Assembly (NCBI RefSeq): GCF_049060185.1
Contig: NZ_JBMEQO010000002.1
Source: Nannocystis pusilla
Lineage (GTDB): Bacteria; Myxococcota_A; Polyangia; Nannocystales; Nannocystaceae
DNA length: 64,000 nucleotides
Reading direction: 5' to 3' (one strand)
In this document: positions 3,160-63,925 of the stretch, in pieces
How positions within the stretch are numbered: position 1 is the first letter of the stretch
How the letters are laid out: each line of letters starts with the position of its first letter
The notes under the pieces: model-generated
What the model saw: only the letters and a program-made list of their open reading frames with translations
Database searches by the model: none
What the model was told of the DNA's origin: nothing
Translations under genes and position numbers: made by a program

Positions 3160-3400
3160 GCTGTCTCTCGCCCGGGCGCAAGTTGCCCGGATCCCCCGGC
3201 GAATGAGCGTAGCCCGGGCGGCCAATGGATCAGTCGCAGGTACATACAAACACGTTACATCGCGCGCGTCGGCGCGCCGGCCAGGATCGCTCGCGCGGGT
3301 GCGCCCGATTGCGACGATGTAAGGCGAACCATCGGCCATGTCCGCATGAACATGGCCGAAAGGTCATCTCAAGAGAGAACCTGCCCGCGCCTGCGCCGCT

Positions 3401-6388
<2,988 letters not shown>

Positions 6389-7863: not shown

Positions 7864-9043
7864 TGCAGCCGTACCCCATCACCGCCATGGCCCTGTGCAA
7901 CGGCATGGGCGACAGCACCGCCGCCGTGCTCGCCGCCTTGCGTGCCGGTCGCTCCGGCCTCGGCCCGTGCCCCGCCGAGTTCGAGCTCGACGCCGTCGTC
8001 GGCGCCATCCCGACCCCGCTGCCGCCGCTGCCCGGCTTCCTCGGCACGGTCCGCGACACCCGGCAGGCGCGGATCGCCGCGGTCGCCCTGGCCGAGCTGC
8101 AGGCCCCGCTGGACCGCGCGCGCGCCCGCTGGGGCTCGGACCGCGTCGCCATCGTCCTCGGCACCAGCACCGGCGGCATCGAGGCCAGCGAGACCGCCTA
8201 CGCGCACGCGCAGGCCCACGGCGGCGCCCTCCCGGCCGACTACGACGTCGAGACCTCGCACGCCCTCGACGCAGTCCTGCACGTCGCTCGCGTCCTCGGC
8301 GGCGGCCTCGGCGGCCCGGCCTACGTCGTCTCGACCGCCTGCTCCTCCTCCGCCAAGGTGTTCGCCTCGGCCCAGCGATTGCTGGCCGCCGGCCTGTGCG
8401 ACGCGGTCCTGCTCGGCGGCGTCGACAGCCTGTGCCGCCTCACCGTGCGCGGCTTCGCCGGCCTCGAGGTCCTGTCCTCGCGGCCATGTCGCCCGTTCTC
8501 GAGCGAGCGGGCCGGCATCAACATCGGCGAGGGCGCCGCGCTGCTCCTGGTCGAACGGACAGGTGACGGCCCGGCCCGCCTGCTCGGCGTCGGCGAGAGC
8601 TCCGACGCCTACCACATGACGAGCCCGCACCCCGAGGGCCTCGGCGCGCGCATGGCGATGGAGCGCGCGCTCCGGCACGCGGGCCTCGGCGCCGCCGACG
8701 TCGACCACGTCAACGCCCACGGCACCGGCACCAAGCAGAACGACAGCATGGAGAGCGCGGCGATCCGGGCGGTGTTCGCCGGCGCCCCGCGCCCGCGGTG
8801 GTCGCCACCAAGGGCTACACCGGGCACATGCTCGGAGCCGCGGGCGCCACCGAGGTCGCCTTCGTCGTCGACGCCATCGCCGGCGGCTACCTGCCCGCCA
8901 GCGTCGGCGCCGATCCGCTCGACGACACCCTCGCGATCGACGTGGTCACCGCCCGCCGCGACGTCCCCACCCGCGCCGCGCTCAGCAACTCGTTCGCGTT
9001 CGGCGGCAGCAACTGCAGCGTCCTCGTCGGAGGCCCGGCATGA
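7864..9043 (+). CDS. Beta-ketoacyl-ACP synthase (FabF/FabB-like KS); frameshift near 8790
   Basis: Motifs are VVSTACSSS (active-site Cys), HMTSPHPEG, NAHGTGT, GYTGHMLGAAG and SNSFAFGGSNCSVLV. The TGA at 9041-9043 lies inside the first copy of an 18-bp direct repeat. Confidence 0.85.
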
Positions 9044-9139
9044 GCGCCTGCGCTTCCGGACATGTTCATCGGGACATGTCCCGATGTTCATCCTCCCCGC
9101 TGCCCGCCGCCCGCACCTTCCGAGGCCCGGCATGAGCGC
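9030..9139. mobile_element. 74-bp palindromic MITE/REP-like insert (9048-9121) flanked by a perfect 18-bp direct repeat GAGGCCCGGCATGAGCGC (9030-9047 and 9122-9139)
   Basis: The direct repeat is exact. Copy 1 carries the KS stop (TGA). Copy 2 carries the CLF ATG. The insert contains GGACATGTTC-atc-GGGACATGTCCC-GATGTTCATCC. Confidence 0.7.
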
Positions 9140-9935
9140 GCTCGCCTTCACCGTCCGCGGCCTCGGCTTCTGGACCCCCGGCTACCCCGACCTCGCCGCT
9201 TGGCGGGCCCGGCCCGACACCTGGCCCGAAAGCCAGGCCCCTCCGACCGAGCCGGCCGCCCCCAAGGCCGAGCTGCTGCCGCCGATGATGCGCCGGCGCA
9301 CCAGCCTGCTCACCCGCATGGCCGCCGAGGTCGCAGCCCAGGCGCTGCAGGACGGCGGCCTCGACCGGGCCGCGGCCACCCTCGTGTACGGCTCCGTCTA
9401 CGGCGAGATCCGCACCACCCTCGACCTCCTCGCCGCCTTGCTCGTCGCCGGCGAGCCGCTGTCGCCGACCAAGTTCCACAACAGCGTCCACAACACGGCG
9501 GCCGGCTACGTCTCGATCGCCACCGGCAACCGGGCCGGCAACGCCGCGCTGTCGGCCGGCCGCAGCACCCTCGCCATGGGCCTCGTCGAGTGCGCCGCCC
9601 TCGTGGCCGCCGGCGAGGGCGACGTCGTGCTCGTGATCGCCGAGGAGCCGCTGCCCGAGCCGCTGGCCGCCGGCCGCCGCTGGGACCCGTTCGCCGCCGC
9701 CTTCGCCCTGTCGGCGCCTGTCCCCGGCGACATGCCCGTGAGGACATGTCGCCTCGAACATGGCGCGAATGACATGCTCCCCGCGCCACGCCCGCTCCCG
9801 GCCGCCCTGGCCGCCAACCCCTGCGCCGCCGCGCTCGCGCTGATCGAGGCGCTGGCCGCCGGCGCCCCGGCGCGGATCGCCCTCGAGCCGCACCTCGCGA
9901 GCGGCTGGCAGTGCACGCTCGGAGCCGGGGCATGA
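9132..9935 (+). CDS. KS-like chain-length-factor type protein (beta-ketoacyl synthase N-domain, no active-site Cys seen)
   Basis: It reads MSALAFTVRGLGFWTPGY...TKFHNSVHNTAAGYVSIA. This is typical of the KS partner (CLF) in aryl-polyene/type II systems. Its stop overlaps the DH start (ATGA). It carries an internal GDMPVRTCRLEHGANDML stretch that coincides with a palindromic element. Confidence 0.7.
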   Translation: MSALAFTVRGLGFWTPGYPDLAAWRARPDTWPESQAPPTEPAAPKAELLPPMMRRRTSLLTRMAAEVAAQALQDGGLDRAAATLVYGSVYGEIRTTLDLLAALLVAGEPLSPTKFHNSVHNTAAGYVSIATGNRAGNAALSAGRSTLAMGLVECAALVAAGEGDVVLVIAEEPLPEPLAAGRRWDPFAAAFALSAPVPGDMPVRTCRLEHGANDMLPAPRPLPAALAANPCAAALALIEALAAGAPARIALEPHLASGWQCTLGAGA

Positions 9936-13697: not shown

Positions 13698-14054
13698 GGC
13701 CTGCCCCATCGGACATGTCCTGGCGCGCCTGTCCTCGAGGACACCCGGTTCCTCCGCCTGACCGCTCACGCGCCCCCATCGTCAGCCGGGTCGTGCTGAC
13801 CTCCTGGCGTCTACGTCCTCGAGCACACCTGTCGCGGCCATACGCCGGACGCCTCACGCGCTCGCAGCATCTGCTCGGCAACGCCGATGCTGTCCACGCG
13901 AACGGTTCACGAGCACTGGCCACGTCATGGCGTGTCTGCTCGCAAGAGACACCCCGTCGCCCGACGGCTCACGCGCTCGCAGCGTCCGCTCAGCCAGGCC
14001 GACCCCGTCCGGACCCGCTTCTCATCCCCGGTCGCGTGCAGTCGCACGCCTGAC
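13698..14054. repeat. Repeat-rich convergent intergenic region with GGACATGTCC-type palindromes plus direct repeats
   Basis: At 13715-13733 it reads CGGACATGTCCTGGCG. At 13738-13749 it reads GTCCTCGAGGAC. CTCACGCGCTCGCAGC units lie 115 bp apart (13853 and 13968). Confidence 0.7.
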
Positions 14055-14977: not shown

Positions 14978-15943
14978 ATGCGGCGCCCCTTCTGCCTCTC
15001 GAGCGTCTACCTCCTCGCGGTCCTCGCGCTGTCGGCCCCGTTCATCGCCGTCGAGGCGCCCGACGCCGAACCTGTCCCCGAGGACACCTGCGACGCCGAC
15101 GCCGTCGACCCCGACCTGCTGGGCGTCTGGCACCGCTGGGACGCCCTCGCCGAGGGCGACCGCATGCGCTTCTACTTCTTCCACGAGGGCGGCTTCGGCC
15201 TCTACCGCTACGGCAAGGTCGGCCTCACCAACACCCACAGCTTCGACTACCGCGCCGAGGGCGGCCACCTCGAGCTCACCTTCCGCAAGACCGGCGAGCG
15301 GCGGCGCGTCCCCTACCGCCTCGAGGAGCAGGGCGGACGCACCTGGCTGGTCCTCGACGAGGACCCGCGCGAGCCCGGCGGCGCCCGCTACTTCAAGGCC
15401 CCGGCGGCCGCCACCGGCGCGCCCTGCTTCGATCCGGCCGGCGACCTGCCCCAAAAGCCAGGCGTCGGCGACCTGCCCCGAGAGCCAGGCACCCCCGCGC
15501 CCGCACTGCTCGCCGCGGGCCTGCCCCGAGAGCCAGGCGCCCCCGCGCCGCTCGCCGCCGCCGACCTCGCCGCCGCCGAGCGGATCGGCGGGCGCCTGTG
15601 GGGCGAGGAGGTCCGTTACGCCACCGGCGGCATGGGCTTCTCGATCTACCAGCTGCAGCCGCAGGCGATCGACGGCCGCGGCGTCGGCTGGCACCACCGC
15701 GGCGACTACGACGAGTGGACCACCGAGACCCTGACCTACCGCCAGCGCGGCGATCGCCTGGCCCTGTCGTTCCCGCTGCGCCACGACGGCCTCGAGACCG
15801 CGATCCTCGTCAGCGGCAGCGGCGACGACCGCACCCTCCAGCTCGCCGAAGATCCGCGCGACTTCTGGCGCGCCCACACCTACCGCGACATGGGCCCCAC
15901 CTTCGCCGGCGCGGTCGCCCCGAGCGCCTGCCTGCCGCAGTGA
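14978..15943 (+). CDS. Hypothetical secreted protein
   Basis: It has a signal peptide MRRPFCLSSVYLLAVLALSAPF. It has internal LPREPGxPAP repeats. It has no recognised domain. Confidence 0.5.
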   Translation: MRRPFCLSSVYLLAVLALSAPFIAVEAPDAEPVPEDTCDADAVDPDLLGVWHRWDALAEGDRMRFYFFHEGGFGLYRYGKVGLTNTHSFDYRAEGGHLELTFRKTGERRRVPYRLEEQGGRTWLVLDEDPREPGGARYFKAPAAATGAPCFDPAGDLPQKPGVGDLPREPGTPAPALLAAGLPREPGAPAPLAAADLAAAERIGGRLWGEEVRYATGGMGFSIYQLQPQAIDGRGVGWHHRGDYDEWTTETLTYRQRGDRLALSFPLRHDGLETAILVSGSGDDRTLQLAEDPRDFWRAHTYRDMGPTFAGAVAPSACLPQ

Positions 15944-15995
15944 CCCCGCCGTCGACGCCGCCTCCGCCTGTCTCTTCGCGCAGGCCCTTTAGAAC

Positions 15996-16725
<730 letters not shown>

Positions 16726-16960
16726 GGAAGTGCGACGAGAGCCTCGGCCCGCCTCGCGCCGTCGCACGACGTTCCTCGCCGCCGTCCCGACCGTTCAGCC
16801 CGCCGCCCGGCTCGAGCGCTAGCGTCGGACGAGCCTCCGCGGCGGTTCAGCCCGCCAACATCCCTCGCCTGCGTCGGCGCCATGACGTGCGACCGCGTCG
16901 GAAATCTCGCGCTCCGCCAGGGCTCGTGACCGAGGGCAAGCGGCGCGGCCGCGGGCGCCC

Positions 16961-18297: not shown

Positions 18298-18347
18298 CTG
18301 TCCCTGCGGTCGCCGCCGAGCTCCCTCCTGCCCCCGCGAGGCCTGCC

Positions 18348-18641: not shown

Positions 18642-19837
18642 CCGTTGCGATGGGCCGCGCCGACACCCCGCTGCCGGCCGAAGTCGACGTCGCGGTGATC
18701 GGCGGCGGCATCATGGGCCTGGGGCTCGCCTACCACCTGGCCCTGCTGTCCGGCGGCAAGGGCAAGCCGCCGCTGTCGGTCGCGGTCATCGAGCGCAGCT
18801 ACCTCGTCAGCGGCGCCTCCGGGCGCAACGGCGGCGGCGTGCGCATGCAGTGGGGCGACGCCGGCAACGTCCGCTTGATGATGGACAGCATCGAGCTGTG
18901 CAAGGACCTCGCGCAGCAGCTCGGCATCAACTTGTGGTTCCGCCAGGGCGGCTACCTGTTCCTCGCTCGCACCGAGGCCGGCGAGCGTCGGCTCGAGCGC
19001 AACGTCCAGCTGCACGGCGAGGTCGGGGCGCCGACCCGCCTGCTCACCGCCGCCGAGGCGCAGGCGATCGTCCCCCAGCTCGACGTCGCCGAGGTCCGGC
19101 TCGCCACCTTCAACCCCGAAGACGGCGTCGTGTTCCCGTGGGCCTTCGTGTGGGGTTACGCCGCCAAGGCCGTCGAGCGCGGCGTCGTCCTGCGCACGCA
19201 CACCAGCGTCGTCCGCGTCGAGCCGCTGGCCCAGGGCTTCGCGCTGCACCTGCACACCGGCGAGGTCGTGCGTGCGCGCCGGGTCGTCAACGCCACCGGC
19301 GCGTGGTCGGGCGCGCTCAACCGCCAGCTCGGCATCGACCTGCCCAACCGCCCGCACCGCCACGAGATCCTCTCGAGCGAGCCGCTCAAGCCGTTCCTCG
19401 ATCCGCTGGTCGTCGATCTCTCGAGCGGCCTCTACTTCTCTCAGAGCACCCGCGGCGAGCTCGTCACCGGCATCAGCCTGCCCGACGCGCCCGACGGCAG
19501 CGACGAGAGCCTCACCCTCCACTCCAGCCTCCGCTTCCTCACCCACCTCAGCGCCACGCTCACGCGCCTGATGCCGATCACCGCGGCGATGAAGGTCCTG
19601 CGGCAGTGGGTCGGTCCTTACGACGTCTCGCCCGACGGCGACGCGATCGTCGGCCCCAGCCCCGGCCACCCCGACTTCATCCAGGTGTGCGGCTTCACCG
19701 GGCACGGCTTCATGATGGCGCCCGCGGTGGGTCGGCTGCTGGCGCGCTGGCTCGCCCTCGGCGAGACCCACCCGATGCTGGAGCGCTGGTCCCCGGGTCG
19801 CTTCACCGCCGGGGCGTCGCCCGCCGCGAGGACATGA
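18638..19837 (+). CDS. FAD-dependent oxidoreductase subunit (HcnC/SoxB/DAO-like)
   Basis: It reads DVAVIGGGIMGL and GASGRNGGGV. It reads H.HGF at the C-terminus. Confidence 0.7.
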   Translation: MTVAMGRADTPLPAEVDVAVIGGGIMGLGLAYHLALLSGGKGKPPLSVAVIERSYLVSGASGRNGGGVRMQWGDAGNVRLMMDSIELCKDLAQQLGINLWFRQGGYLFLARTEAGERRLERNVQLHGEVGAPTRLLTAAEAQAIVPQLDVAEVRLATFNPEDGVVFPWAFVWGYAAKAVERGVVLRTHTSVVRVEPLAQGFALHLHTGEVVRARRVVNATGAWSGALNRQLGIDLPNRPHRHEILSSEPLKPFLDPLVVDLSSGLYFSQSTRGELVTGISLPDAPDGSDESLTLHSSLRFLTHLSATLTRLMPITAAMKVLRQWVGPYDVSPDGDAIVGPSPGHPDFIQVCGFTGHGFMMAPAVGRLLARWLALGETHPMLERWSPGRFTAGASPAART

Positions 19838-20233
19838 TCATCGGCTGACTCGCCGGGATCGGCCCCGCAAATAAACCCGTGCGCCTCGCCATGAACCGGC
19901 AGCCACGCGCGAATTCGGCGGCGCCGCCTCACGCGCCCCGCGCGATGTGGGCCCGGGTCGCCCCCGCCAGGGTCGGCTTCGCAACGGGTCTTATGCCGCT
20001 CCGCCGCGGCTTCCGGGCGATTGGCGACGGAAAACCCCGGCGTTTCCCGACTCCCCGCCGGCCGTCCAGCGCCCCGCGAACCTGGTTGCGACCGCCTGGT
20101 GCGCCTGCCCTCGGCGGCCGGACTGCGATATCATCTCCGTCCGACCTCCGAGGTGCCATGGGCCCGTGCTTGCCAGCCGAATTGTTCTGCCCTATCATCG
20201 GCGAAACATGCAGCCAGCGAAGGATAGCGCCCC

Positions 20234-21049
20234 ATGGAAGTGACTTTCTGGGGCACCCGGGGCAGCATTCCAGTTTCCGGGCCGCGGTACGCAGAGTTCG
20301 GCGGCAACACGCCCTGCCTTCAGATTTCGCTCGAGAGCACGACGGACACCGTCATCCTCGACTCGGGCTCGGGCATCCGTGAGCTCGGCATCCGCCTCGT
20401 GCAGACTCGAGCCGCGCACTCGCGGGTCATTCACCTGTTTCTGACCCACGCTCACTGGGATCACATCCAGGGCTTCCCGTTCTTCCCGCCGGCCTTCATG
20501 CCGGACTTCCGGCTCCACATCTACTGCACGAAGGACGCGCGAGCGGTCCTCGACCGGCAGATGTCGACGCCGTTCTTCCCGGTCGGCCTCGACGTGATGG
20601 GCTCCACCAAGCTCTTCCATCACCTGCTGCCGCAGGAGGTCACGACGATCGCCGAGGCGACGCTGCGGCACATCCCGCTGCCGCACCCGCAGGAGAGCAC
20701 CGCGTTCCGCGTCGACGAGCGCGGCAAGTCGGTCGTGTTCGCCACCGACACCGAGCACGCGCCCGACCACATCAACGAGACCCTGCGGGACCTGGCCGAA
20801 GGGGCAGACGTCCTGATCTACGACGCCCAGTACACCTCCGAGGAGTACAGCGCCGGCAAGCAGGGCTGGGGTCACAGCACCTTCGCCGAGGCCGTCAAGC
20901 TGGCCCGCGCCGCCCACGTCGGCAAGCTCGTCCTCTATAGCCACGACCCGGCCCACGACGACGAGATGCTGCGCAAGATCGAGGCGGCCGCCCAGGAAGC
21001 CTTCCCCGGCACCGTCGCCGCCCGCGACGGCATGAAGCTGAAGCTCTGA
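20234..21049 (+). CDS. MBL-fold metallo-hydrolase
   Basis: It has the HxHxDH motif LTHAHWDHIQG. It reads DSGSG near the N-terminus. The ORF is intact. It is preceded by a 380-bp non-coding leader. Confidence 0.75.
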   Translation: MEVTFWGTRGSIPVSGPRYAEFGGNTPCLQISLESTTDTVILDSGSGIRELGIRLVQTRAAHSRVIHLFLTHAHWDHIQGFPFFPPAFMPDFRLHIYCTKDARAVLDRQMSTPFFPVGLDVMGSTKLFHHLLPQEVTTIAEATLRHIPLPHPQESTAFRVDERGKSVVFATDTEHAPDHINETLRDLAEGADVLIYDAQYTSEEYSAGKQGWGHSTFAEAVKLARAAHVGKLVLYSHDPAHDDEMLRKIEAAAQEAFPGTVAARDGMKLKL

Positions 21050-21054
21050 GCCGA

Positions 21055-21101
21055 CTGGCCGCCAGGACATGTCCTCGCGGCCAGCTCGGTGCCGACGTCC
21101 G
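21055..21101. repeat. 34-bp near-perfect palindrome centred on GGACATGTCC
   Basis: The sequence is CTGGCCGCCAGGACATGTCCTCGCGGCCAG. It lies between the MBL stop and the next start. Confidence 0.7.
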
Positions 21102-21116
21102 TCCGGCTGAGCTCGC

Positions 21117-21902
21117 ATGTCGCAGCACGAGATCGCAGACACCGTCGCCGACTCGGTGCGCGTGCTCCACGAGCACCACGGCGGCGACGACCACCGCGAC
21201 CTGTTCTTCGCGCTCTTCGCCTTCCAGGCCGGCTTCGACTGCGGCTTCACCCACGGGCGCGTGCTCGACATCCTGATCGCGCGGCGCTTCACCTACCGCC
21301 TGCCGATCACCGCGCACCCGCAGTTCGCCGCCAACAACCGCGCATTCAAGGGGGCGCCGCCGAAAGAGTGGCGCTTCGTGGACTCGGAGGTCCTCGGCCG
21401 CGAGCCGCCCGAGGACCGGCCCACTGTCGGTCACGAGAACGGTTACCTCCTGGAGGGCGCCCTGTACTGCGACGCCGGCACGCCGCTGTGGCACGAGCTC
21501 GCCGCCGCCGGGGTGCTGCGAGGCGCCGACGCCGAGCCGCCGCGGCCGCTGCCCCTCGGCAACGTCGCGCTGCAGGTGACGCGGGCGGCCGAGAAGGTCG
21601 ACGACCGCGACCTGATCGCCATGTGGATCAACTTCGGCCCGCGGATGCTGTTCCCGAAGACCCGGCACGTGCGCGAGGGCGAGGTGGTGGCCACGAACCC
21701 GTTTACCGGCAAAGCGATCGTCGCCCCCGAAGACTGCGTCATCCCGACCGACCCGACGGTCGCCGAGCTCACCGCCGTCCCCGACGCGGTCGCGCTGCGC
21801 GAGCTGGCCCGCCGCGTCGACGCCGTCCACGTCCCGGTCCACTACGACTACCGCCCGCCGCGCGAGCTCTGGTCCGAGGCCGACGCCTGGTTCTGGGGCT
21901 GA
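21117..21902 (+). CDS. Hypothetical protein
   Basis: It is an intact 261-aa ORF with locus-typical codon usage and no recognised motifs. Confidence 0.5.
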   Translation: MSQHEIADTVADSVRVLHEHHGGDDHRDLFFALFAFQAGFDCGFTHGRVLDILIARRFTYRLPITAHPQFAANNRAFKGAPPKEWRFVDSEVLGREPPEDRPTVGHENGYLLEGALYCDAGTPLWHELAAAGVLRGADAEPPRPLPLGNVALQVTRAAEKVDDRDLIAMWINFGPRMLFPKTRHVREGEVVATNPFTGKAIVAPEDCVIPTDPTVAELTAVPDAVALRELARRVDAVHVPVHYDYRPPRELWSEADAWFWG

Positions 21903-22089
21903 CCTGCGAGGCGCATTACCTGTCCCGAAGTTCAGGCCCGACGCGAGCGCTCGTGATCATCCTCGCCTCGCCCGCCCTGAACATTGACCGGCAGGCCGAC
22001 GCTGCTCGCAGCGCTCCCCGTCCCAAGGTTCAGGCCGACTCGAACGCTCGCCGAGACTCCTCCGCAGCGAAGTTACGCCTCGCGCCCGC
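21903..22089. repeat. Convergent intergenic region with two 24-bp direct repeats (GTTCAGGCCSGACKCGARCGCTCG) and CTCACGCG motifs
   Basis: The copies lie at 21930 and 22028, 98 bp apart. It shares CGCTCACGCG with 13765/13853/13968. Confidence 0.55.
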
Positions 22090-23397
22090 TCACGCGACCA
22101 GCCGACCGACCGCGAGCGGCCCCTCGGCGCGCTCGACCTCGATCTGCGTCGCCCGGCCGAGCAGCGCGTCGTCGCCGGCCGCCAGCACAGTCAAGCCGTT
22201 GCCGGCCCGACCGACCAGCAGCCCCGTCCGCCGATGTCGCGTCCGGTGCACGACCACCGGCAGGGTGCGCCCGATCTGCGCCGCCGCGAACGCCCGCTGC
22301 TTCGCCGCCGACAGCGCCCGCAACGCTGCCCCGCGCTGTTGCTTGACCGCCGCGTCGACCTGTCCCGAGAGACAGGCGGCATCGGTGCCCGCGCGCGGCG
22401 AGTAGGCGAACACGTGCAGGTACGCCAGCGGCAGCGCGGCCAGCAGCGCGTGCGTGGCCGCGAACGCCTCGTCTGACTCGCCGGGGAAGCCGACGATCAC
22501 GTCGGTGCCGACACCGATCCCCGGCACCGCCTCGGCCAGGCGAGGCACCAGCGCCTGCAGGTCAGCGGCAGTGTGCGCCCGCCGCATGCGCCGCAGCGTG
22601 TCGTCGTCGCCGCTCTGGACCGGCAAGTGGAGGTACGGACACAGCCGCGGATCCGTCGCCAGCAGCGTCACCAGGTGATCGTCGACCTCGTGCGGATCGA
22701 CCGAGCCGAGGCGCAGCCGGGCCGGCCCGAGCTGCGGCAGCAGCTCCGCGACCAGCGACGACAGCGTGCTGCGCGGCCGCAAGTCGCGACCGTAGATGCC
22801 GAGGTGCACCCCGGTGAGCACGACCTCCGGCACCCCGGCAGCGACCAACTCGTCCAGCTGCGCCCGCACCTCCGCGGGCGGCACGCTCACGCTGCGCCCG
22901 CGCACATGCGGCACGATGCAGAAGCTGCAGCGGTAATCGCAGCCGTCCTGGATCTTCAGGTACGCCCGGCTGCGCCGCGGGTCGGCGGCCGGACGCAGCC
23001 GGGCCGCGCGGACGCGCCGCAGCAGGTCGACCGGGGCCACGTGGATCTCCGGGACATGTCCCTCCGAACATGTCTCTCCGAGCACCTCGAACAGCCGCTC
23101 CTTCTCGCGGTTGCCGACCACCAGCGTCACCCCGGGCAGCGCCGCCGCCTCCGCGGGGGCGGCCGTCGCCCAGCAGCCGGTGACGACCACCTTCGCCCCG
23201 GCGCGCGCGGCCCGGCGCACGTGCTGGCGCGCGTCGGCGTCGGCCTCGTGGGTGATCGTGCAGGTGTTGACGATCACGACCTCGGGCGCGGCCTCGGCGT
23301 CGACCACGGTGTGGCCGGCCGCGCGGGCCATCTGCTCGAGGGCGTCGGACTCGAACTGGTTGAGGCGACAGCCGAGCGTGCTGAACGCGACGCGCAT
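22090..23397 (-). CDS. mtaB: MiaB-like tRNA methylthiotransferase (MtaB/RimO family radical SAM)
   Basis: It reads [18 protein letters not shown]...VIVNTCTITHEAD (MTTase N-domain). It has the radical-SAM motif CDYRCSFCIVP. The ORF is intact. Its start overlaps the kinase stop (TGATG). Confidence 0.85.
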   Translation of the reverse strand: MRVAFSTLGCRLNQFESDALEQMARAAGHTVVDAEAAPEVVIVNTCTITHEADADARQHVRRAARAGAKVVVTGCWATAAPAEAAALPGVTLVVGNREKERLFEVLGETCSEGHVPEIHVAPVDLLRRVRAARLRPAADPRRSRAYLKIQDGCDYRCSFCIVPHVRGRSVSVPPAEVRAQLDELVAAGVPEVVLTGVHLGIYGRDLRPRSTLSSLVAELLPQLGPARLRLGSVDPHEVDDHLVTLLATDPRLCPYLHLPVQSGDDDTLRRMRRAHTAADLQALVPRLAEAVPGIGVGTDVIVGFPGESDEAFAATHALLAALPLAYLHVFAYSPRAGTDAACLSGQVDAAVKQQRGAALRALSAAKQRAFAAAQIGRTLPVVVHRTRHRRTGLLVGRAGNGLTVLAAGDDALLGRATQIEVERAEGPLAVGRLVA

Positions 23398-25457
23398 CAG
23401 AGCGGCACGACGATCGTGAACTCTTGCGGCGTCTTGCGGGTGTTGACGAACCGGACCTTGGTCTTGAAGGCCCGCGCCAGGCACTTCGCCTCCGCGCTCG
23501 TGTCGTCGGACGTCGCCTCGGTCACGCGCCCCTTGGGGCCGTCGACCTTGAGCCGCAGCTTGTAAGTCTTGCCCTTCGGCGTGCTGATCGTCCGGCAGGT
23601 CTCGAACTCGGCGCGGTAGCTCTTCAGCGCCTGCGAGCGCTCCATCGGCCCCAGCACCTCGGGCCAGTTGGCCGACACTTCCTCGCCCTTCGGCGCGGCC
23701 GGCTCGCTCTTCTTGACCGTGGTCGTCTTCTTGGGCTCGGTGACCTTCTTGGCCGGGTCCTTCTTCGCGTCGTCGTCGACCACGATCGGCTCGTCGTCGG
23801 CCTTCTTCGGCTCCGGCGTCGGCTCGACCTTGGTCTCCGGCGGCGCGTCGGTCTTCGTCTCCGGCGGCGTCTCGACCGGCTTCGCCGCGTCGGGCGTGCC
23901 CGCCGTGACGGCCGCGACCTCGCTCGGCTTGTCGACCGGCTGCGGCTTCGGATCGTCGCTGCGGCTGAGCGCGCACACCAGGCCGACCACCAGCACCAGC
24001 ACCGCCGCGCCGAGGCCGATGACCAGGCGCGACAACATCTGCGCGTCCATCGTCCCGCCGCGCCACGGCAGCGACAGCGACGTCGGCCGCAGCCCCGACG
24101 CGCTGCTGAGTCCTTGCGTCAGCAACGAATCGTCCGGCGTCACCGGGTTGGGCACGACCACGCCCGCCGGCATGCTGACCCCGACGGCCAGGCGCGCCGC
24201 GTGGGCGGCCGCCTCGAGGTTGGTCGTGGTGGTCCGCCCGGCGTCCCCGGCGGCCCCGCGCGGCGTCGCGACGATGGCTTCGATCAGCTCGCCCATCGTC
24301 TGGTAACGCTGCGTCTTGTCCTTCTCCATCGCCTTCAGGATGACCGCCTCGACCTCGACGGGGATGTCGGCCTCGGGCGCCAGCTGCCGCGGGGGCACCG
24401 GCTTGGCGTTCACCTGCTGCGACAGCACCCCGTACATCGTCTTGTCGGTGAACGGGAGGTTGCCGGTGAGCAGCTGATAGAGGATGCAGCCGACCGCATA
24501 GATGTCCATGCGCTGGTCGGCCGGGTCGCCGTGGATCTGCTCCGGCGCCATGTACTCGGGCGTGCCGATCAGCGCGCCGACCTGCGTCAACGGGTTCGTG
24601 CCGCCGTCGCGGTTCTCCTCGAGGAACTTGGCGATCCCGAAGTCGAGCACCTTGACGAAGTCGCGGATGCCGTTGCGCTGGATCAGGAAGACGTTCTCCG
24701 GCTTCATGTCCCGGTGGATGATCCCGTGCGCGTGGGCGGCCTGCAGCGCGCGGCAGATCTGCAGCAGCACCCGGCGGGCCCGCGCCCACGACATCGGCCC
24801 CTTCTTGAGGATCTTGCCGAGGTCCTCGCCCTGCAGGTGCTCCATGGCGAAGAACACCTGGCCGTTGGGCATCGCGCCGAAGTCGGTGATGTCGATGACG
24901 TTCTCGTGGCCGATCGTCGACGCCGCCCGGGCCTCGCGGAGGAACCGCTTCACCTGGTCGGGGCGGTTGGTGTAGGCCGGGTTCAGGACCTTCACGGCCA
25001 CCCGCTTGCCGAGCGCCACGTGCTCGGCGAGGTAGACCTTGCCCATCCCGCCCTTGCCGATGAGGTCGAGGATCCGGTAGCGGTCGGCCAGCACCTGGCC
25101 GAACAGCGCGTCGCGCTTGGCCGCCGTCGCCTTGGCCTTCAAGCTCTTGGCCGCGGTGCGCTCGACGGTGTCCTCGTCTTCGGCCTGGGGCTCGCCGTCC
25201 ACGCTGGTCGGCTGCCCGTCGAGCTCGACCTCGCCGGACGCCCGTCCGAGCTCGATCGAGAAGTGGGCCGCCGAGACCTGGCCCTCGAGCGCTGCCTCAT
25301 ACTCCTCTGCGAGGTCGTCGTCGCCGCCCACCTCGTGCGAGACCACGGGCGTCGGCGGGAGCGAGTCCGGAGGATCCACGATGACCGCGGTCAACCGCGG
25401 CCCCGATCGATCCTCGCCAGCCTGGCCGGAGTCGCGGCTCCCTTCGTTCGTCGCCAT
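23397..25457 (-). CDS. Ser/Thr protein kinase (intact, 686 aa) with TM helix and Lys/Pro/Glu-rich linker
   Basis: It reads [30 protein letters not shown] and [10 protein letters not shown]. It has a TM helix [17 protein letters not shown]. Confidence 0.85.
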
Positions 25458-26065
25458 CGCGCTCGTCGGACGCTAGCACGGCCGCCGCGGGCGGAAAAGC
25501 TGGCGCTGACCCCGGGCCGCGCTTCGTCGGCCGTCAGCGCCCGCCATTGCCCGGGCGCGAGGCCCTCGAGGGTCCAGGGTCCGATCGCCCAGCGGACCAG
25601 ACGCAGCGTCGGCAACCCGACCGCGGCGGTCATGCGCCGCACCTGGCGGTTTCGGCCCTCGCGCAGGACGAGCTCCAACCAGCAGGTCGGGATCGACAGG
25701 CGCGTGCGAATCGGCGGCGTTCGCTCCCACAGCGGCGGTGGGTCGATGAGCCTCACCTCGGCGGGGGCGGTCGGGCCGTCACGGAGGACCAAACCGGCCC
25801 GCAGGCGCTCCAGCGCCGCTTCCTGAGCCGTCCCCTCGACTTGCACCCAATACGTCTTCGCCAGCTTGTGGCGCGGATCGCTGAGCTGGTGCTGCAGGGC
25901 CCCATCGTCGGTCAGCACCACCAGGCCCTCGCTGTCGAAGTCGAGGCGCCCGGCGGCGTACACGCCGGGCACGTCGATGAAGTTCGCCAGCGTCGGCCGG
26001 CCCTCCCGGTCGGTGAACTGCGTCAGCACCCCGTAGGGCTTGTTGAACAGGAGCACCTGCGCCAC
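25391..26065 (-). CDS. rluE: RluE/RsuA-family rRNA pseudouridine synthase
   Basis: It reads [15 protein letters not shown]...[17 protein letters not shown]...[13 protein letters not shown]. The start is GTG at 26065 or TTG at 26077. The 3' end may be frameshifted. Confidence 0.7.
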
Positions 26066-26274
26066 GCCGGCCAAGTGTGGGCCGCCTCGTCGCTCGCGGG
26101 GCGCGTGACCGACGATTGCATCCTCACGAACGGCGCAGAAGCGACGGCGACGCCCACTGGGGGCGCGATCCCCGGACTTCGGCGCGAGCCCGTGCCTGTG
26201 GCCTGGACGCCCTCGGTTCGAGGAAGTACCACAGTGCGACGGCGCCTGCGCGCCGCGGCCCAAAGCGAGGAATC

Positions 26275-28083: not shown

Positions 28084-28337
28084 ACTTTCGACATGTCCGC
28101 CAGGACATGTCCGATCATGCAGGGTCGTTCGGACATGTCCGAACGGCCCTCTCGGTTGCCGGGCGCTCGCCGCAGCCTTCACTTGAGAGCCGGGCTCGGC
28201 GCGAAAGCGACACGAGCAACCCGGCGGCCACGCCCCTCGATCGCTCGCGGCCTCCTGGGCGCGCGCCAGGTCGGGCCCCGAAGCAGCATGACCGCCAGGA
28301 CATGTCCTGGCGGTCACGCCTCGCGCGCGGGCGCGGC
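28084..28337. repeat. Cluster of four GGACATGTCC palindromic elements between convergent genes
   Basis: CGACATGTCC lies at 28090 and CCAGGACATGTCCGAT at 28101. A 20-bp perfect palindrome CGTTCGGACATGTCCGAACG lies at 28123-28142. A 28-bp perfect palindrome TGACCGCCAGGACATGTCCTGGCGGTCA lies at 28289-28316. Confidence 0.85.
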
Positions 28338-35810: not shown

Positions 35811-36192
35811 TGACGCACGAACGACGCCAAGATCGCAGCGAAAACCCCTGGACCGCCGGGGATCTCTACCTTCGGGCCGTTGCCCAGCGGACCGGCCTCG
35901 AGCACCTCACGCTCGCCACCCGCGAGGGCCTGCGCCTCTCCGGCACGGGTGACGAGGACCTCGGCAGCCGCGTCGCCGCGGTCGCTCCCTCTTCGTCGAG
36001 GAGCCCGCGACCCTGCGCGCCGGGATGATCGACGAGCTGACCGACGGCCAGCCGATGCAGGTCTGGCGCGTCACCGTCCGCGACCGCCCCTTCTACCTCA
36101 TCGGCTTCGGCGCCCTCACCGACATGTCCGAGGAGGTCCAGCACGCCTTCGACCGGATCTTCGCTCGTCCAGCCGCGCGCACCTCGAACTGA
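35811..36192 (+). CDS. Hypothetical small protein (~125 aa); one frameshift near 35990
   Basis: It reads MTHERRQDRSENPWTAGDLYLRAV...FYLIGFGALTDMSEEVQHAFDRIF. Confidence 0.4.
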
Positions 36193-40799: not shown

Positions 40800-41260
40800 C
40801 GCCGTTCCCCGCGGTCGTTCTCCGACCTGTCTCTCCGGACATCTCGCGCGCTCCGGCCGCGGCTGTATTCAACCTGTCCCTTTGAACATATCGCGCTCCG
40901 ACCGCGCCATATTCGACCTGTCTCTCCGGACATACCGATCGCGCAGATCCACCCGTCATCGTTCAGGTGGATCCCTGCCCCTTCGGACATCCTCGAGGCG
41001 CGGCGCTCACCGGCTCGCCGCCTGTCCCTTCGGACATCCCATCTCCGCTCCCCGGGCGGCGCCTGCGCCTGCGTTCGCGGCTCGCCCGGTCCCTTCGTCG
41101 CCGGACCTGCGACTGTCCCCTCGCCTCGGTCTGCGCGACCTGCCGCGATTGCCGGGCGCGGTCCGGGGTCCAAGTTTGCCTGAACCCTGGATCACCGATG
41201 ACCACGCCAGCTCCGACCTCGGCCGCAGCGCGCTCGACCTGTCTCTACGACATGTCACCA
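40800..41260. repeat. Array of ~7 degenerate ~20-bp units (CGACCTGTCTCTCCGGACAT) plus a hairpin GATCCACC..GGTGGATC in a 490-bp non-coding gap
   Basis: Units lie at about 40826, 40871, 40914, 40982, 41022, 41104 and 41228. Spacing is irregular at 40-120 bp. Confidence 0.7.
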
Positions 41261-42845: not shown

Positions 42846-42915
42846 TCAGGACATGTCCCGCGCACTATGCCTGATGGGCCATGCCCTGAAAGAAATGCCC
42901 GATCGGGCATGCCCC
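42846..42915. repeat. Palindromic element trio GGACATGTCC / GGGCCATGCCC / GGGCATGCCC between convergent genes
   Basis: The full motif is exact at 42849-42858. CATG-centred variants lie downstream. Confidence 0.75.
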
Positions 42916-48989: not shown

Positions 48990-49076
48990 CCCTCACAGAC
49001 AGGTACTCAGGAGCATGTTCGAGAGGACATGTCCTGGCGAGCATGTCTCCGAGAGCATGCCGCCGCGGACATGTCC
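48990..49076. repeat. Five tandem GRRCATGTYY elements between convergent genes
   Basis: The units are GAGCATGTTC, AGGACATGTCCTGGCG, GAGCATGTCTCCGAGAGCATGCC and CGGACATGTCC. Confidence 0.8.
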
Positions 49077-54372: not shown

Positions 54373-54382
54373 CCCTTCGAAC

Positions 54383-55863
54383 ATGTCCAAGAGCGCACCC
54401 GTCAAGAAGACCACCAGCAAGATCTGGGACAAGGTCAAGGACGTCGTCGACCCCGACCGCGCCCTCCAGGCCACCGTCGCCGCCGCCATCGAGGGCGTCG
54501 CCGTCCGCAACGTCCTCGGCATGGCGCCGGAGACGTGGAAGCCGGGCAAGCCGCTCAAGCTGCTGCTCGCCGGCTACGTCGGCACGCGCAACACCGGCGC
54601 CGACGTCCGCGTCGAGGAGATGATCCGCCAGCTGCGCCACGTCGTCGGCGACGACGAGCTCGAGCTGACGATCATGACCGTCGATCCCAAGTTGACGCGC
54701 GGCTACTTCCGCGCCGTCCACCAGATCGAGCTGCCGGCGGTGTTCCCCAAGTTCATCGCCACCGAGTGCCCGAAGCACCACGGCGTCATCGCTTGCGAGG
54801 GCTCGATGTTCAAGTCGAAGTTCTCGAGCGCGCTGACCTGCTTCATGGCCGGCGCGCTCGGCCTCGCCAACGCCGAGAACAAGGTCAGCGTCGGCTACGG
54901 CGCCGAGGCCGGCAACATGACCCCGGCGCTCCGCGACTTCGTGCGCGACGCCTGCAAGAAGTCGCTGGTCATCTGCCGCAACGAGCCCTCGCGCAAGGTC
55001 CTCGGCGAGCTCGGCATCCGCACCACCTCCGGGGCCGACACCGCCTGGACCTTCGACCCGGCGCCGCTGTCGCGCGGCGCCCAGCTCCTGCGCGACGCCG
55101 GCTGGGACGGCCGCCAGAAGGTCCTCGTCGTCTGCCCGATCAACCCGTTCTGGTGGCCGGTCAAGCCCGACCTGCTCAAGTACGCCGCCTACAAGCTCGG
55201 CGGGCAGTACAAGCACGAGCACTACAGCGCCTTCTACTTCCACCACCACAGCGAAGCGGCCGACAAGAAGTACAACGCGTATATCCAGGCCCTGGCCGAC
55301 GGCGTCAACGCCTTCGCCGCGGAGCGCGAGTTCTTCACCATCCTCGTCGGCATGGAGCAGCTCGACCGCCACGCCTGCGAGGACCTGCAGCCGCGCCTCG
55401 ATCGCGGCGGCGCGCTGTTCGTCAGCGACGAGCACGACATGTACGACCTCGTCAGCGTGCTGCGTAACTGCAGCATGATGGTGAGCTCGCGCTTCCACGC
55501 GATCGTCACCTCGATGCCCGGCCTCGTGCCCTCCGCCGGCGTCACCATGGACGAGCGGATCCGCAACCTCATGAACGACCGCGGCCACCCGGACATGTTC
55601 TTCGAGGTCGACGAGGAGGGCCTCGGCGAGAAGCTGCTGCACACCCTGCGTCGCCTGTGGCGCGACGCCGAGGGCATCAGCGCCGACATCGCCCGCGCCG
55701 TCCCGGCCCAGCTGAAGCTCATGGGTCAGATGGGCATCGACTTCATGGACGAGGTCGTCCGCGTCTACCCCGAGTTCCCGCGGCGCGACCTCCGCGCACC
55801 TGGGAAGCCCACCTGCCGCCGCTGCCGGCCAACGTGCAGCGCCTGCTGGAGCGCCACGCATGA
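54383..55863 (+). CDS. Polysaccharide pyruvyl-transferase-family protein; frameshift near 55800
   Basis: It is about 490 aa. The core reads VSSRFHAIVTSMPGLVPSAGV. The ATG sits inside GAACATGTCC. Confidence 0.55.
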
Positions 55864-63418: not shown

Positions 63419-63859
63419 ATGAGCCGGATCCGGATCGGCGACACCACCTGGACCTTCCGCAGCGCCTCGCTCGAGCTCTACCATTGCACGAGTCCCGAGG
63501 CCGACTGGAACCTCGCGCTGGACCACGCCGGAGCGACCCTGTGGCTGGCCGGCACCGTCGTCCCCGGGCCGCGCTCGCCCGAGGCGCTGATCGGCGCCGA
63601 GGTGTCGGTCGACCTGCGCTCGCTCGACGAGGTCGCTGGCGCCCTGCTCGGCCGCCACGTGACCCTCTACCCTGGCGGCCAGGACGTGTGCGCGCTCGGC
63701 TTCCGCTTCGCCGCCGCGCCCGGCGGCGTGCGCCTGGCCGCCTCCGCCCGCTGCGACTGGGACCGCTACCTCGAGACCTTCGACCATGACCAGCCGGTCG
63801 ACCTCGAGCTCGAGATCGACGCCGCCGTCGTCGCCCTGCACCCTGGCAGCATGCCCTGA
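63419..63859 (+). CDS. Hypothetical protein
   Basis: A GGAGG RBS lies 5 nt upstream of the ATG. The ORF is 146 aa with no motifs. Confidence 0.45.
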   Translation: MSRIRIGDTTWTFRSASLELYHCTSPEADWNLALDHAGATLWLAGTVVPGPRSPEALIGAEVSVDLRSLDEVAGALLGRHVTLYPGGQDVCALGFRFAAAPGGVRLAASARCDWDRYLETFDHDQPVDLELEIDAAVVALHPGSMP

Positions 63860-63925
63860 CGGACATGCTCCTTCGCGCAGGTCTGTTCGAGCATGTTCGT
63901 ATGGACATGCTCGTAACGAACCCAT
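63860..63925. repeat. Three GRRCATGYTC palindromic units after the last gene
   Basis: The sequence is GGACATGCTCCTTCGCGCAGGTCTGTTCGAGCATGTTCGTATGGACATGCTCG. It shares CTTCGCGCAGG with 15965. Confidence 0.75.

What the first reader, a model, noticed from the sequence alone, without database searches (positions are those of the whole stretch)
23041..23090. Palindromic elements lying in-frame inside protein-coding genes (RPE-like behaviour)
Several element copies lie inside ORFs and are translated in-frame.
- mtaB encodes ...VLGETCSEGHVPEIHV... across GGGACATGTCCCTCCGAACATGTCTCTCCGAG at 23046-23079, between the MTTase and radical-SAM domains.
- The KS-like CLF protein encodes GDMPVRTCRLEHGANDMLPA at 9741-9790.
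- The TPR kinase has an ~80-aa extra segment between DFGIAR and [10 protein letters not shown] that contains the element at 5696-5712 (RDMSEN).
- A small protein encodes TDMSEE at 36121.
- In the frames actually used the elements encode recurring peptides such as (G)ETCSEGHV, RTCRLEHG and (R)DMSE.
- yggS (15996) and the pyruvyl-transferase gene (54383) use the ATG inside GAACATGTCC as their start codon (ATG TCC = Met-Ser).

This mirrors the Rickettsia palindromic elements, which insert into ORFs and add peptide segments. I have not seen it described for Myxococcota.
Basis: partly seen in the sequence, partly recalled or inferred. Interest (0 to 1): 0.65.

Follow-up and report, generated by a model that had tools for sequence, protein, structure and literature searches.

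The report
Short hairpin repeats read through inside genes
A Nannocystis genome carries an abundant, apparently undescribed family of 14-base-register hairpin repeats that sit mostly just after genes, but a minority lie in-frame inside genes, where they are translated into small recurring peptides and sometimes lengthen protein loops.

Summary
The motif copies are real. The exact core GGACATGTCC occurs 11 times in 64 kb (0.055 expected), in arrays with a strict 14-nt register. The window is Nannocystis, 97% identical to N. pusilla GCA_026626665.

Because 14 mod 3 = 2, successive units are read as D-M-S, T-C and G-H-V, using codons that are rare in this genome. This explains the recurring peptides.

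The Rickettsia-like "inserted element adds a peptide" reading is only partly right:
- **MtaB:** the motif pair coincides with a net gain of 4 aa in the interdomain linker of one Nannocystis subclade.
- **CLF-like protein:** no length change. The array overlies a beta-hairpin, and its rare codons are conserved in 9 genomes.
- **Kinase:** the ~80-aa loop predates the motif, and the gene is frame-broken in this window.

- A hypothetical protein's loop grows from 23 to 31, 60 and 82 aa by 42-nt (14-aa) repeats.
- A 92-bp insertion with an 18-bp target duplication at the KS/CLF junction creates a coupled 31-codon mini-ORF.

Family-wide, perfect pairs lie between convergent genes 41 times and between divergent genes twice. 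The behaviour is REP/BIME- and MIRU-like, not RPE-like. Function is unproven.

The parts
23052..23075 (-). Two-unit array inside mtaB (GGACATGTCC ctcc GAACATGTCT on the + strand). Read on the - strand as E-T-C-S-E-G-H-V. A degenerate third unit (GAGCACCTCG) lies at 23080-23089.
   Evidence: N. punicea has three intact units. TRF reports period 14.
22090..23397 (-). mtaB gene (435 aa; UPF0004 plus Radical_SAM).
   Evidence: AF2 model pLDDT 90.2, with the motif residues at the end of helix 97-109 and in the following low-confidence linker.
9714..9779 (+). Five-unit array inside the CLF-like gene (GCGCCTGTCC, CGACATGCCC, GGACATGTCG, GAACATGGCG, TGACATGCTC). Encodes APVPGDMPVRTCRLEHGANDML.
   Evidence: Rare codons retained across 9 genomes. 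No length change against motif-free homologues.
9132..9935 (+). CLF-like beta-ketoacyl synthase chain-length-factor gene (PF13723).
9030..9139 (+). Junction insertion between KS and CLF. It comprises 18-bp direct duplications GAGGCCCGGCATGAGCGC (9030-9047 and 9122-9139) around a 74-bp insert (9048-9121) that carries units at 9058 and 9072. A mini-ORF at 9040-9135 (31 codons) is ATGA-coupled at both ends.
   Evidence: Five relatives keep the plain ATGA overlap.
5703..5712 (-). Single exact unit in the hypervariable activation-loop segment of the TPR kinase (gene 3401-6380, frame-broken in this window).
15431..15590 (+). Expanded, drifted array (CCTG/CAGG variants) forming a P/A-rich loop in the hypothetical protein gene 14975-15943. 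The loop is 60 aa here, against 23 aa in L085, 31 aa in L081/L082 and 82 aa in N. punicea.
   Evidence: TRF hit at 15439-15490.
15964..16001 (+). Three units in 14-nt register (CCTG, CAGG, CATG cores) between the hypothetical gene and yggS. The last unit, GAACATGTCC, supplies the yggS ATG (15996).
   Evidence: L181 lacks the spacer (stop-CC-ATG).
54379..54388 (+). Unit GAACATGTCC supplying the ATG (54383) of the pyruvyl-transferase-domain gene.
36120..36129 (+). Isolated 9-of-10 match (CGACATGTCC; TDMSEE). Not distinguishable from chance.
28089..28140 (.). Intergenic array after the acyl-CoA dehydrogenase gene, between convergent genes. Three units; one 14-bp unit is an indel against N. punicea.
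   Evidence: RNA fold z = -5.8.
28290..28315 (.). 26-bp perfect palindrome GACCGCCAGGACATGTCCTGGCGGTC. It is 100% conserved in N. punicea inside an otherwise diverged spacer.
   Evidence: RNA fold z = -5.0.
49011..49076 (.). Five-unit intergenic array between convergent genes.
   Evidence: RNA fold z = -5.1.
42849..42914 (.). Intergenic array between convergent genes, starting 7 nt after the stop codon of 41820-42842.
63847..63912 (.). Four-unit array overlapping and following the stop codon of 63404-63859.
   Evidence: RNA fold z = -4.8.
21055..21084 (.). Near-perfect 30-bp palindrome around one unit, between same-strand genes. It is tandemly duplicated (66 bp) in N. punicea.
   Evidence: RNA fold z = -4.2.
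13711..13734 (.). Array just after the stop codon of 12393-13697. It is kept in place in N. punicea, but the individual units differ.
3334..3357 (.). Two-unit array between the kinase 3' end and the next minus-strand gene.
40823..41260 (+). Non-coding stretch with at least six same-orientation composites of the form CGACCTGTCyCT-yCG-GACATnTC (units in 14-nt register).

Best explanation
The sequences in the finding are the intragenic minority of an abundant repeat family restricted to a Nannocystis lineage. The unit is the 10-bp palindrome GGACATGTCC plus a free 4-nt spacer. It can equally be read as abutting TGTYC-N4-GRACA hairpins, which gives a 14-nt register.

**Shown**
- The family is about 200-fold over-represented.
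- Adjacent units fold on each other, with the spacer as a tetraloop.
- Copies lie mostly within a few nucleotides after stop codons. They are strongly enriched between convergent genes and nearly absent between divergent genes.
- Copy number changes between close genomes in unit steps: a 14-nt indel, a 66-nt duplication, and 42-nt (14-aa) in-frame repeats.
- At least once, a motif-bearing segment was inserted with an 18-bp duplication of its target.
- Inside genes only frame-preserving versions persist. Because 14 mod 3 = 2, consecutive units are translated as D-M-S, T-C and G-H-V from otherwise rare codons, so the peptides are by-products of the DNA motif.

**Inferred**
- The arrays spread and resize by hairpin- or slippage-driven replication errors and template switching, not by a classical transposase.
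- They are tolerated, or used, as 3'-end hairpins that work in both directions (transcript-end or stability elements without a U-tract).
- Coding copies are mostly neutral passengers in permissive linkers, loops and gene junctions: MtaB +4 aa, the hypothetical protein +8 to +59 aa, and the KS/CLF mini-ORF.
- The CLF copy is an exception. It keeps its rare codons across about 50% protein divergence, so it probably has a nucleotide-level role within that operon.
For: - **Enrichment and register:**
- **Hairpin folds:** z from -4.2 to -5.8 for intergenic arrays. Stem extension by locus-specific complementary flanks occurs in 14% of 84 metagenomic pairs, against 1.3% in the control. Spacers have no consensus.
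- **Position:** 9 of 11 exact units in the window are at gene ends or junctions. Among metagenomic perfect pairs, 41 are convergent, 21 tandem and 2 divergent.
- **Turnover:** a 14-bp unit indel and conserved palindromes inside a diverged spacer; a 66-bp duplication; unit replacement in place.
- **Junction insertion:** 92 bp in the window and 179 bp in L083, flanked by the same 18-mer, while five relatives keep the ATGA overlap. A second junction, at yggS, is expanded relative to L181.
- **In-frame behaviour:** frame cycling and peptides. 12 of about 89 perfect pairs lie in long ORFs. Loop growth of 23, 31, 60 and 82 aa by 42-nt repeats.
- **MtaB:** +12 nt in the window's subclade only, with later decay.
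- **Rare codons:**
- **No mobile-element gene nearby:** no transposase next to the arrays, and no second copy of the 74-bp insert.
Against: - No experimental or transcript data exist, so the 3'-end role rests only on position and folding.
- The arrays lack the U-tract of canonical intrinsic terminators.
- A test for RNA-level selection was negative: mismatches between paired units gave 7 G.U against 15 A.C on the sense strand. The pairs counted are not independent.
- Most pairs (86%) have no stem extension, and some single units can form no stable hairpin, which fits a protein-binding site as well.
- Retention of ACATGT in the CLF gene over deep divergence is hard to reconcile with purely neutral passengers.
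- The 18-bp target duplication is long and unexplained. A dedicated mobilising enzyme elsewhere in the genome cannot be excluded, because no whole genome could be scanned.
Confidence: 0.6

Rival explanations
1. True RPE-like behaviour. Under this view a discrete mobile palindromic element transposes into ORFs in-frame, and each insertion adds a conserved peptide module.
For: - A net +4 aa coincides with the appearance of the motif in MtaB.
- L085 has +12 aa with a new unit in its CLF protein.
- The KS/CLF junction holds a real insertion with an 18-bp target duplication.
- 12 in-ORF perfect pairs occur in metagenomes.
Against: - There is no element of RPE size. Units are 10 bp, and arrays inside genes are 24-70 bp.
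- The only longer insert (74 bp) has no second copy.
- 83 loci share no consensus beyond the units.
- The CLF and kinase segments are not insertions.
- Length changes follow tandem unit arithmetic of 14 and 42 nt.
- The shared peptides are only 2-3 residues long and are frame artefacts.
Confidence: 0.12
2. The units are binding sites for a dimeric DNA-binding protein, either a global regulator or a nucleoid-associated factor. Arrays would be cooperative site clusters, and coding copies would be functional intragenic sites.
For: - The core is a perfect 10-bp palindrome with a free spacer.
- Single units occur without a hairpin-capable context.
- Nucleotide-level conservation inside the CLF gene reaches down to 49% protein identity.
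- There is no sense-strand wobble bias.
- Six same-orientation composites lie in a 600-bp non-coding region upstream of a gene.
Against: - Near-absence from divergent (promoter-containing) spacers, 2 against 41 convergent, argues against operator function.
- Locus-specific complementary arms extending the stems are not explained by a binding consensus.
- Units drift and are replaced in place.
- The mtaB copy decays in several lineages.
Confidence: 0.2
3. Protein-level selection for the peptides (for example TCRL in the CLF protein) produces the DNA similarity, so the motif in genes is convergent coding sequence.
For: - T-C-R-L is conserved at the protein level even where the Thr codon differs (ACC in L086 and L088).
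- It lies in a predicted beta-strand.
Against: - The same nucleotides form the intergenic family.
- Codon choice is the rare one: TGT in 8 of 8 genomes, although it is 10.5% of Cys codons, and ACA in 6 of 8, although it is 1.7% of Thr codons.
- Three unrelated proteins show all three frames of the same motif in 14-nt register.
Confidence: 0.04
4. Chance matches in ordinary coding sequence, or an assembly artefact.
For: - Isolated single-mismatch hits such as 36120, 38488, 50339 and 55591 are within the chance expectation of about 1.8 per pattern.
- The window does carry private frameshifts.
Against: - Two exact 10-mers lie inside genes, where about 0.05 are expected for the whole window.
- The units are in 14-nt register.
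- The same arrays are present in independent assemblies of four or more Nannocystis genomes and in metagenomes.
Confidence: 0.03

Closest known systems
REP / BIME elements (repetitive extragenic palindromes of Enterobacteria, Pseudomonas and Stenotrophomonas)
   Same: - Both are short, G+C-rich, hairpin-forming and present in high copy number.
- Both occur singly or in clusters.
- Both lie after genes, with a bias towards convergent gene pairs (REP data: PMC3184786; here).
   Different: - The unit here is only 10 bp plus a 4-nt spacer, in a strict 14-nt register. Each unit is itself a perfect palindrome, so arrays are direct and inverted repeats at the same time.
- No conserved 5' GTAG-type tetranucleotide was seen.
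- No RAYT gene was seen in the sequence available.
- A sizeable minority of copies is translated in-frame.
MIRU (mycobacterial interspersed repetitive units)
   Same: - The insertion lies between genes of an operon.
- It has a small ORF whose ends overlap the stop and start codons of the flanking genes.
- Direct repeats flank the filled site.
- Copy number varies between strains (MIRU data: PMC3184786).
- The KS/CLF junction insert behaves exactly this way: 0, 92 or 179 bp, an ATGA overlap at both ends, and an 18-bp duplication.
   Different: - MIRU units are 40-100 bp tandem repeats with about 40-50 loci per genome.
- Here the repeating unit is 14 nt, and the non-motif part of the 74-bp insert is unique.
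Rickettsia palindromic elements (RPE)
   Same: - Both are palindromic repeats found in-frame inside unrelated housekeeping genes.
- Both are translated and are located in structurally permissive parts of the protein (RPE data: PMC10969869; MtaB linker).
   Different: - RPEs are ~150-bp elements in defined families, each encoding a conserved peptide of tens of residues, added as a block.
- Here there are 10-bp units whose 2-3-residue peptides are frame by-products.
- At the named sites the length change is nil or 4 aa.
- Growth is by tandem 42-nt steps.
HIP1, the highly iterated palindrome of cyanobacteria (GCGATCGC)
   Same: - Both are short perfect palindromes, hyper-abundant in one lineage.
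- Both are present in coding and non-coding DNA.
- Both are conserved beyond what codon usage predicts, and their function is unknown (PMC5861425 and PMC4390886).
   Different: - I recall HIP1 being spread through genes at roughly one per gene; that recollection was not checked here.
- HIP1 is linked to orphan methyltransferases.
- The present motif is concentrated at gene 3' ends, forms 14-nt arrays and hairpins, and no link to methylation could be tested.
[quoted passage not shown]
   Same: [quoted passage not shown]
   Different: No U-tract follows the stems here. The unit is much shorter and is repeated in register.

Membership tests
Rickettsia palindromic elements (RPE) | A discrete element of about 100-150 bp, recurring as a whole at many loci. 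| tested here: not met
   Units are 10 bp and in-gene arrays are 24-70 bp. The 74-bp junction insert has no second copy in the window or in four relatives. 83 loci share no consensus beyond the units.
Rickettsia palindromic elements (RPE) | In-frame insertion that lengthens the host protein relative to orthologues lacking the element. | tested here: inconclusive
   - MtaB: +4 aa in one subclade.
- Hypothetical protein: +8 to +59 aa.
- L085 CLF: +12 aa.
- Window CLF: 0 aa.
- Kinase loop: predates the motif.
Rickettsia palindromic elements (RPE) | Each family encodes a conserved peptide module. | tested here: not met
   Only the di- and tripeptides DMS, TC and GHV recur, and they are the three frames of one 10-mer.
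REP / BIME | A short (21-65 bp), G+C-rich imperfect palindrome able to form a stem-loop, in high copy number. | tested here: met
   Fold z-scores from -4.2 to -5.8. 11 exact cores in 64 kb against 0.055 expected.
REP / BIME | Extragenic location with a bias towards convergent gene pairs. | tested here: met
   9 of 11 exact cores are at gene ends or junctions. 41 pairs are convergent against 2 divergent. About 13% of perfect pairs are nevertheless intragenic.
REP / BIME | Association with a REP-associated tyrosine transposase (RAYT) flanked by the repeats. | not testable with these tools
   No whole Nannocystis genome could be scanned. No transposase-like domain was found among the 20 window proteins scanned.
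MIRU | Located between genes of an operon, with an ORF that overlaps the flanking stop and start codons. | tested here: met
   The mini-ORF at 9040-9135 starts at the duplicated ATG that overlaps the KS stop codon (9041-9043). It ends at the TGA that overlaps the CLF ATG (9132).
MIRU | Tandem units of 40-100 bp. | tested here: not met
   The register is 14 nt. Larger periods seen (42, 44 and 66 nt) are local multiples or duplications of it.
HIP1-type highly iterated palindrome | A short perfect palindrome hyper-abundant across the genome, including within genes. | tested here: inconclusive
   Over-representation is met. The distribution, however, is strongly 3'-intergenic rather than gene-wide.
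HIP1-type highly iterated palindrome | A cognate orphan DNA methyltransferase that recognises the core. | not testable with these tools
   No methylome or whole-genome data were available.
Canonical intrinsic terminator | A G+C-rich hairpin followed by a U-tract. | tested here: not met
   None of the arrays in 12000-31900 is among the 5 terminator-like hits, which do not exceed the shuffled expectation of 4.0.

The most novel reading that the evidence does not exclude
The repeats are not just tolerated hairpins. They would be the cis-element of a dedicated, still unknown Nannocystaceae system: a trans-acting factor that recognises GGACATGTCC duplexes or hairpins at transcript or replicon 3' ends. 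Some coding copies, such as the CLF array that keeps ACATGT through about 50% protein divergence, would then be dual-coded functional sites. The 14-nt register, which cycles all three frames and restores frame every 42 nt, would let such sites expand inside ORFs and act as a built-in generator of new protein loop segments, start codons and coupled mini-ORFs.
Probability: 0.2. Interest if true: 0.75.

Novelty: new variant of a known kind. Interest (0 to 1): 0.55.

Why it matters
- **An undescribed repeat family in an important group.** Myxobacteria of the Nannocystis group have very large genomes (12-13 Mb) and are mined for natural products. An abundant, undescribed repeat family affects gene calling, assembly and operon models there. 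Examples are start codons donated by repeats, mini-ORFs at gene junctions, and hypervariable loops.
- **A clear mechanism for protein change.** A non-coding hairpin repeat can enter coding sequence without destroying it. A 14-nt register returns to frame every three units, so proteins gain 14-residue blocks.
- **A likely dual-coded site.** One intragenic copy is conserved at synonymous sites, which suggests overlapping nucleotide-level information inside an aryl-polyene-type biosynthetic operon. That can be tested directly.

Tried and rejected
- **Rfam scan.** A gathering-threshold scan of the whole window gave no hit.
- **Literature.** GGACATGTCC appears only as the p53 half-site, which is a coincidence. 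Nothing was found on Nannocystis or myxobacterial REP-like repeats.
- **Junction insert as a local tandem duplication.** Rejected. The insert shows no similarity to either flank (z about -1).
- **Junction insert as a multi-copy MITE.** Rejected. No other copy exists.
- **RNA-level selection via sense-strand G.U wobble.** Not supported (7 against 15).
- **Canonical intrinsic terminators.** Not met.
- **Kinase ~80-aa loop created by the element.** Rejected, because the loop is present in all relatives.
- **An 18-bp perfect palindrome at the kinase site.** I first read one there. It is only the 10-bp core, with flanks offset by one base.
- **Early MtaB conclusion revised.** The first alignment, with only distant orthologues, suggested no insertion at all. 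Denser sampling changed this to a 4-aa gain in one subclade.
- **Tool limits.** An exact look-up of the window's MtaB found nothing. Pfam scans of 20 window proteins found no transposase.
Full report
**What is at the coordinates**

The window is 72% G+C and comes from Nannocystis.
- Its mtaB locus is 97% identical at the DNA level to N. pusilla GCA_026626665 (L182) and 92% identical to N. punicea FL3 (L001).
- At 23052-23075 two copies of a 10-bp motif (GGACATGTCC, GAACATGTCT) lie 14 nt apart inside mtaB (22090-23397, minus strand).
- They are read as E-T-C-S-E-G-H-V, between the UPF0004 and Radical_SAM domains.

**The motif is a real family**

- GAACATGTCC at <=1 mismatch gives 37 matches against 1.8 expected.
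- The exact palindrome GGACATGTCC occurs 11 times against 0.055 expected.
- Distances between CATG cores peak sharply at 14, 28 and 42 nt.
- The copies therefore form arrays of a 10-bp unit plus a 4-nt spacer. The same arrays can be read as abutting hairpins TGTYC-N4-GRACA.
- Adjacent units fold on each other, with the spacer as the loop. Intergenic arrays have fold z-scores from -4.2 to -5.8. The coding ones are weaker: mtaB -1.9 and CLF -2.8.
- Rfam has no matching family. I found no paper describing the repeats; the only literature hits for the 10-mer are the p53 half-site.

**Where the family lives**

- In the window, 9 of the 11 exact units are at gene ends or junctions, often within 1-15 nt of a stop codon. 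Two are intragenic.
- A scan of public metagenomes for perfect pairs (GGACATGTCC-N4-GGACATGTCC) returned 91 stretches, nearly all about 71% G+C. Their spacers show no consensus.
- Classified by the nearest coding flanks, 41 pairs lie between convergent genes, 21 between or within same-strand genes, and only 2 between divergent genes.
- This is the REP- or terminator-like pattern (PMC3184786), and it argues against promoter operators.
- The arrays lack a U-tract. No transposase-like gene is adjacent to them.
- The 14-nt signal is present in the window, N. punicea, N. radixulma, N. pusilla and two metagenomic relatives. It is absent from three more distant Nannocystaceae loci.

**Why the peptides recur**

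- Because 14 mod 3 = 2, successive units in an ORF are read in the three frames in turn: (G)AC ATG TCC gives D-M-S, ACA TGT gives T-C, and GGA CAT GTC gives G-H-V.
- This reproduces ETCSEGHV in MtaB, DMPVRTCRLEHGANDM in the CLF protein, FDMLAETCSEAHV in N. punicea MtaB (which has three units), and MSKETCSNNHVD in a distant CLF.
- Twelve metagenomic perfect pairs lie inside long high-GC3 ORFs. They encode GHVxxDMS (9 cases), DMSxxTC (2) or TCxxGHV (1).
- The codons used are rare in this genome: ACA is 1.7% of Thr codons, GGA 2.8% of Gly, CAT 8.2% of His and TGT 10.5% of Cys.
- A/T-ending codons are 5.2% overall, but 5 of 10 in the mtaB array and 5 of 18 in the CLF array.
- The DNA motif therefore dictates the peptide, not the reverse.

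**Testing the insertion claim, case by case**

MtaB:
- With only distant orthologues, the linker looked the same length.
- With 37 homologues the picture is clearer. The window's subclade (78-96% identity) has ...ETCSEGHVPE.... Most other Nannocystaceae (62-82% identity) read ...EPAAE----R..., four residues shorter.
- At the DNA level, about 24-28 nt of array replace an unrelated 12-16 nt, a net gain of 12 nt.
- Several members show decay (ACSERHAP, TCAKGQAP), which is consistent with drift after acquisition.
- In a confident model (pLDDT 90.2), T109-C110 end the last helix of the N-terminal domain. G113-H114-V115 begin the lowest-confidence interdomain linker.

CLF-like protein:
- Homologues without the motif have a segment of equal length.
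- In the model (pLDDT 83.6), D-M sits in a turn and TCRLEHGAN forms a beta-strand. This is not an insertion.
- The rare codons are nevertheless kept: TGT in 8 of 8 other genomes and ACA in 6 of 8.
- Overall, rare codons are retained in 20 of 24 comparisons inside the array, against 16 of 34 elsewhere in the gene (Fisher p = 0.006). That indicates a constraint at the nucleotide level.
- L085 has 12 extra codons beside the array, including a new unit.

Kinase:
- The 93-150-aa DFG-to-APE loop is present in all five relatives. L085 has VPQTPPETT where the window has VPRDMSEN. The loop therefore predates the motif.
- In this window the gene is also split into four frames.

TDMSEE at 36120:
- It is an isolated 9-of-10 match and may be chance.

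Start codons:
- The yggS ATG lies in the last unit of a three-unit array that is kept in register in four genomes.
- L181 lacks the whole 45-60-nt spacer and has stop-CC-ATG.

- The hypothetical gene upstream of yggS (14975-15943) has a loop between YFKAP and IGGRLWG of 23 aa in L085 (no motif) and 31 aa in N. radixulma and N. pusilla. In those two it contains EDMSRATGSEGHV, encoded by GGACATGTCC-cggg-CGACAGGCTC-cgaa-GGACATGTTC.
- The same loop is 60 aa in the window and 82 aa in N. punicea. It grows by tandem 14-aa (42-nt) repeats such as ADMSRETGSPAPLL, and the units drift from CATG to CCTG or CAGG.
- The loop differs by further indels even from the 97%-identical L182.
- At the KS/CLF junction, five relatives have the overlapping stop/start ATGA.
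- The window has 92 extra bp there: a 74-bp motif-bearing insert flanked by an 18-bp direct duplication of the junction (GAGGCCCGGCATGAGCGC).
- The duplicated ATG and TGA frame a 31-codon mini-ORF (MSACASGHVHRDMSRCSS...) that is coupled to both neighbouring genes.
- The closest relative (L083) has 179 bp between the same 18-mers, much diverged and with an extra motif copy.
- The insert is not similar to its flanks and has no other copy. This is MIRU-like behaviour (PMC3184786).

**Dynamics**

- Between the window and N. punicea, one indel is exactly one 14-bp unit.
- A 26-bp and a 20-bp palindrome are perfectly conserved within an otherwise scrambled spacer.
- Another palindrome is tandemly duplicated (66 bp) in N. 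punicea.
- Arrays stay in place while individual units are replaced.
- Beyond the units, 83 loci share no consensus. Neighbouring positions in register are unit-like more often than shifted controls.
- 14% of pairs have locus-specific complementary arms extending the stem, against 1.3% in controls.

**Interpretation**

- The intragenic copies are real members of a hairpin-forming, 3'-end-biased repeat family. It behaves like REP/BIME elements in location and like MIRU or minisatellites in dynamics.
- Inside genes the repeats survive where the frame is preserved, in linkers, loops and junctions. There they are translated passively and can lengthen proteins.
- The RPE analogy captures that outcome. 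It fails on the defining features: element size, block insertion and a conserved peptide (PMC10969869).
- I infer that spread is by slippage or template switching, and that the repeats act at 3' ends as hairpins. Neither step is demonstrated.
- A duplex-binding protein remains a serious rival. The wobble test gave no RNA signal, and the CLF site is conserved at synonymous positions.

Noticed in passing
window 3401-6380, 16517-16520, 17761, 18150, 32149, 32955 and others: The window carries single-base (or 2-nt and 11-nt) deletions inside coding regions, and the same ones appear against both N. pusilla L182 and N. punicea L001. They coincide with changes of GC3 phase. The TPR kinase is split into four frames and yggS is truncated, whereas relatives have intact genes. 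These are either assembly errors or pseudogenes private to this genome.
   Followed up: partly
window 40800-41260: A ~600-bp non-coding stretch between two plus-strand genes holds at least six same-orientation composites of the form CGACCTGTCyCT-yCG-GACATnTC. TRF reports period 44 at 40823-40934. It looks like a regulatory or leader region built from the same units.
   Followed up: partly
window 21117-21902 and flanks 21055-21084, 21905-22090: A 261-aa gene with no Pfam match is present in the window, L182 and L001 but absent from L181, where mtaB and the metallo-beta-lactamase-fold gene are adjacent. The gene is bracketed by family repeats, including GCGCATyACCTGTCCCGAAGTTCAG copies: at least one clear copy in the window (21911-21935) and three in L182.
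   Followed up: no
window 28158-28272: The middle of the convergent spacer is completely different from that of the 97%-identical N. pusilla L182, while the motif palindromes at both ends are kept. The sequence between arrays has been replaced.
   Followed up: no
L001 12278-12400 (orthologue of window 21055-21084): N. punicea has a 66-bp tandem duplication of the palindrome-bearing element.
   Followed up: yes
window 7803-12304: The CLF gene belongs to an aryl-polyene-type cluster: KS, CLF-like protein, ApeP-like dehydratase, ketoreductase and an FAD-dependent halogenase-like enzyme. The cluster is syntenic in all relatives that were fetched.
   Followed up: partly
window 62456-62570 and 40021-40200: Two other coding-region tandem repeats turned up. 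One has period 15 or 30 (unit AACGGCATGCGCATG...), inside the ORF 62024-63346 that carries an ADYC domain. The other is a 66-bp (22-aa) repeat inside the gene 39179-40747. Their relation to the motif family is unknown.
   Followed up: no
window 9714, 13725, 15964, 48997, 63875; L083 1430-1560: Arrays often include or end with variant units whose core is CCTG/CAGG (or CCTA/CATA) instead of CATG. Some have a GTTCA/TGAAC pentamer in register, for example TGAACTTyrGGACATGTCC right after two stop codons at 28081 and 42840.
   Followed up: partly
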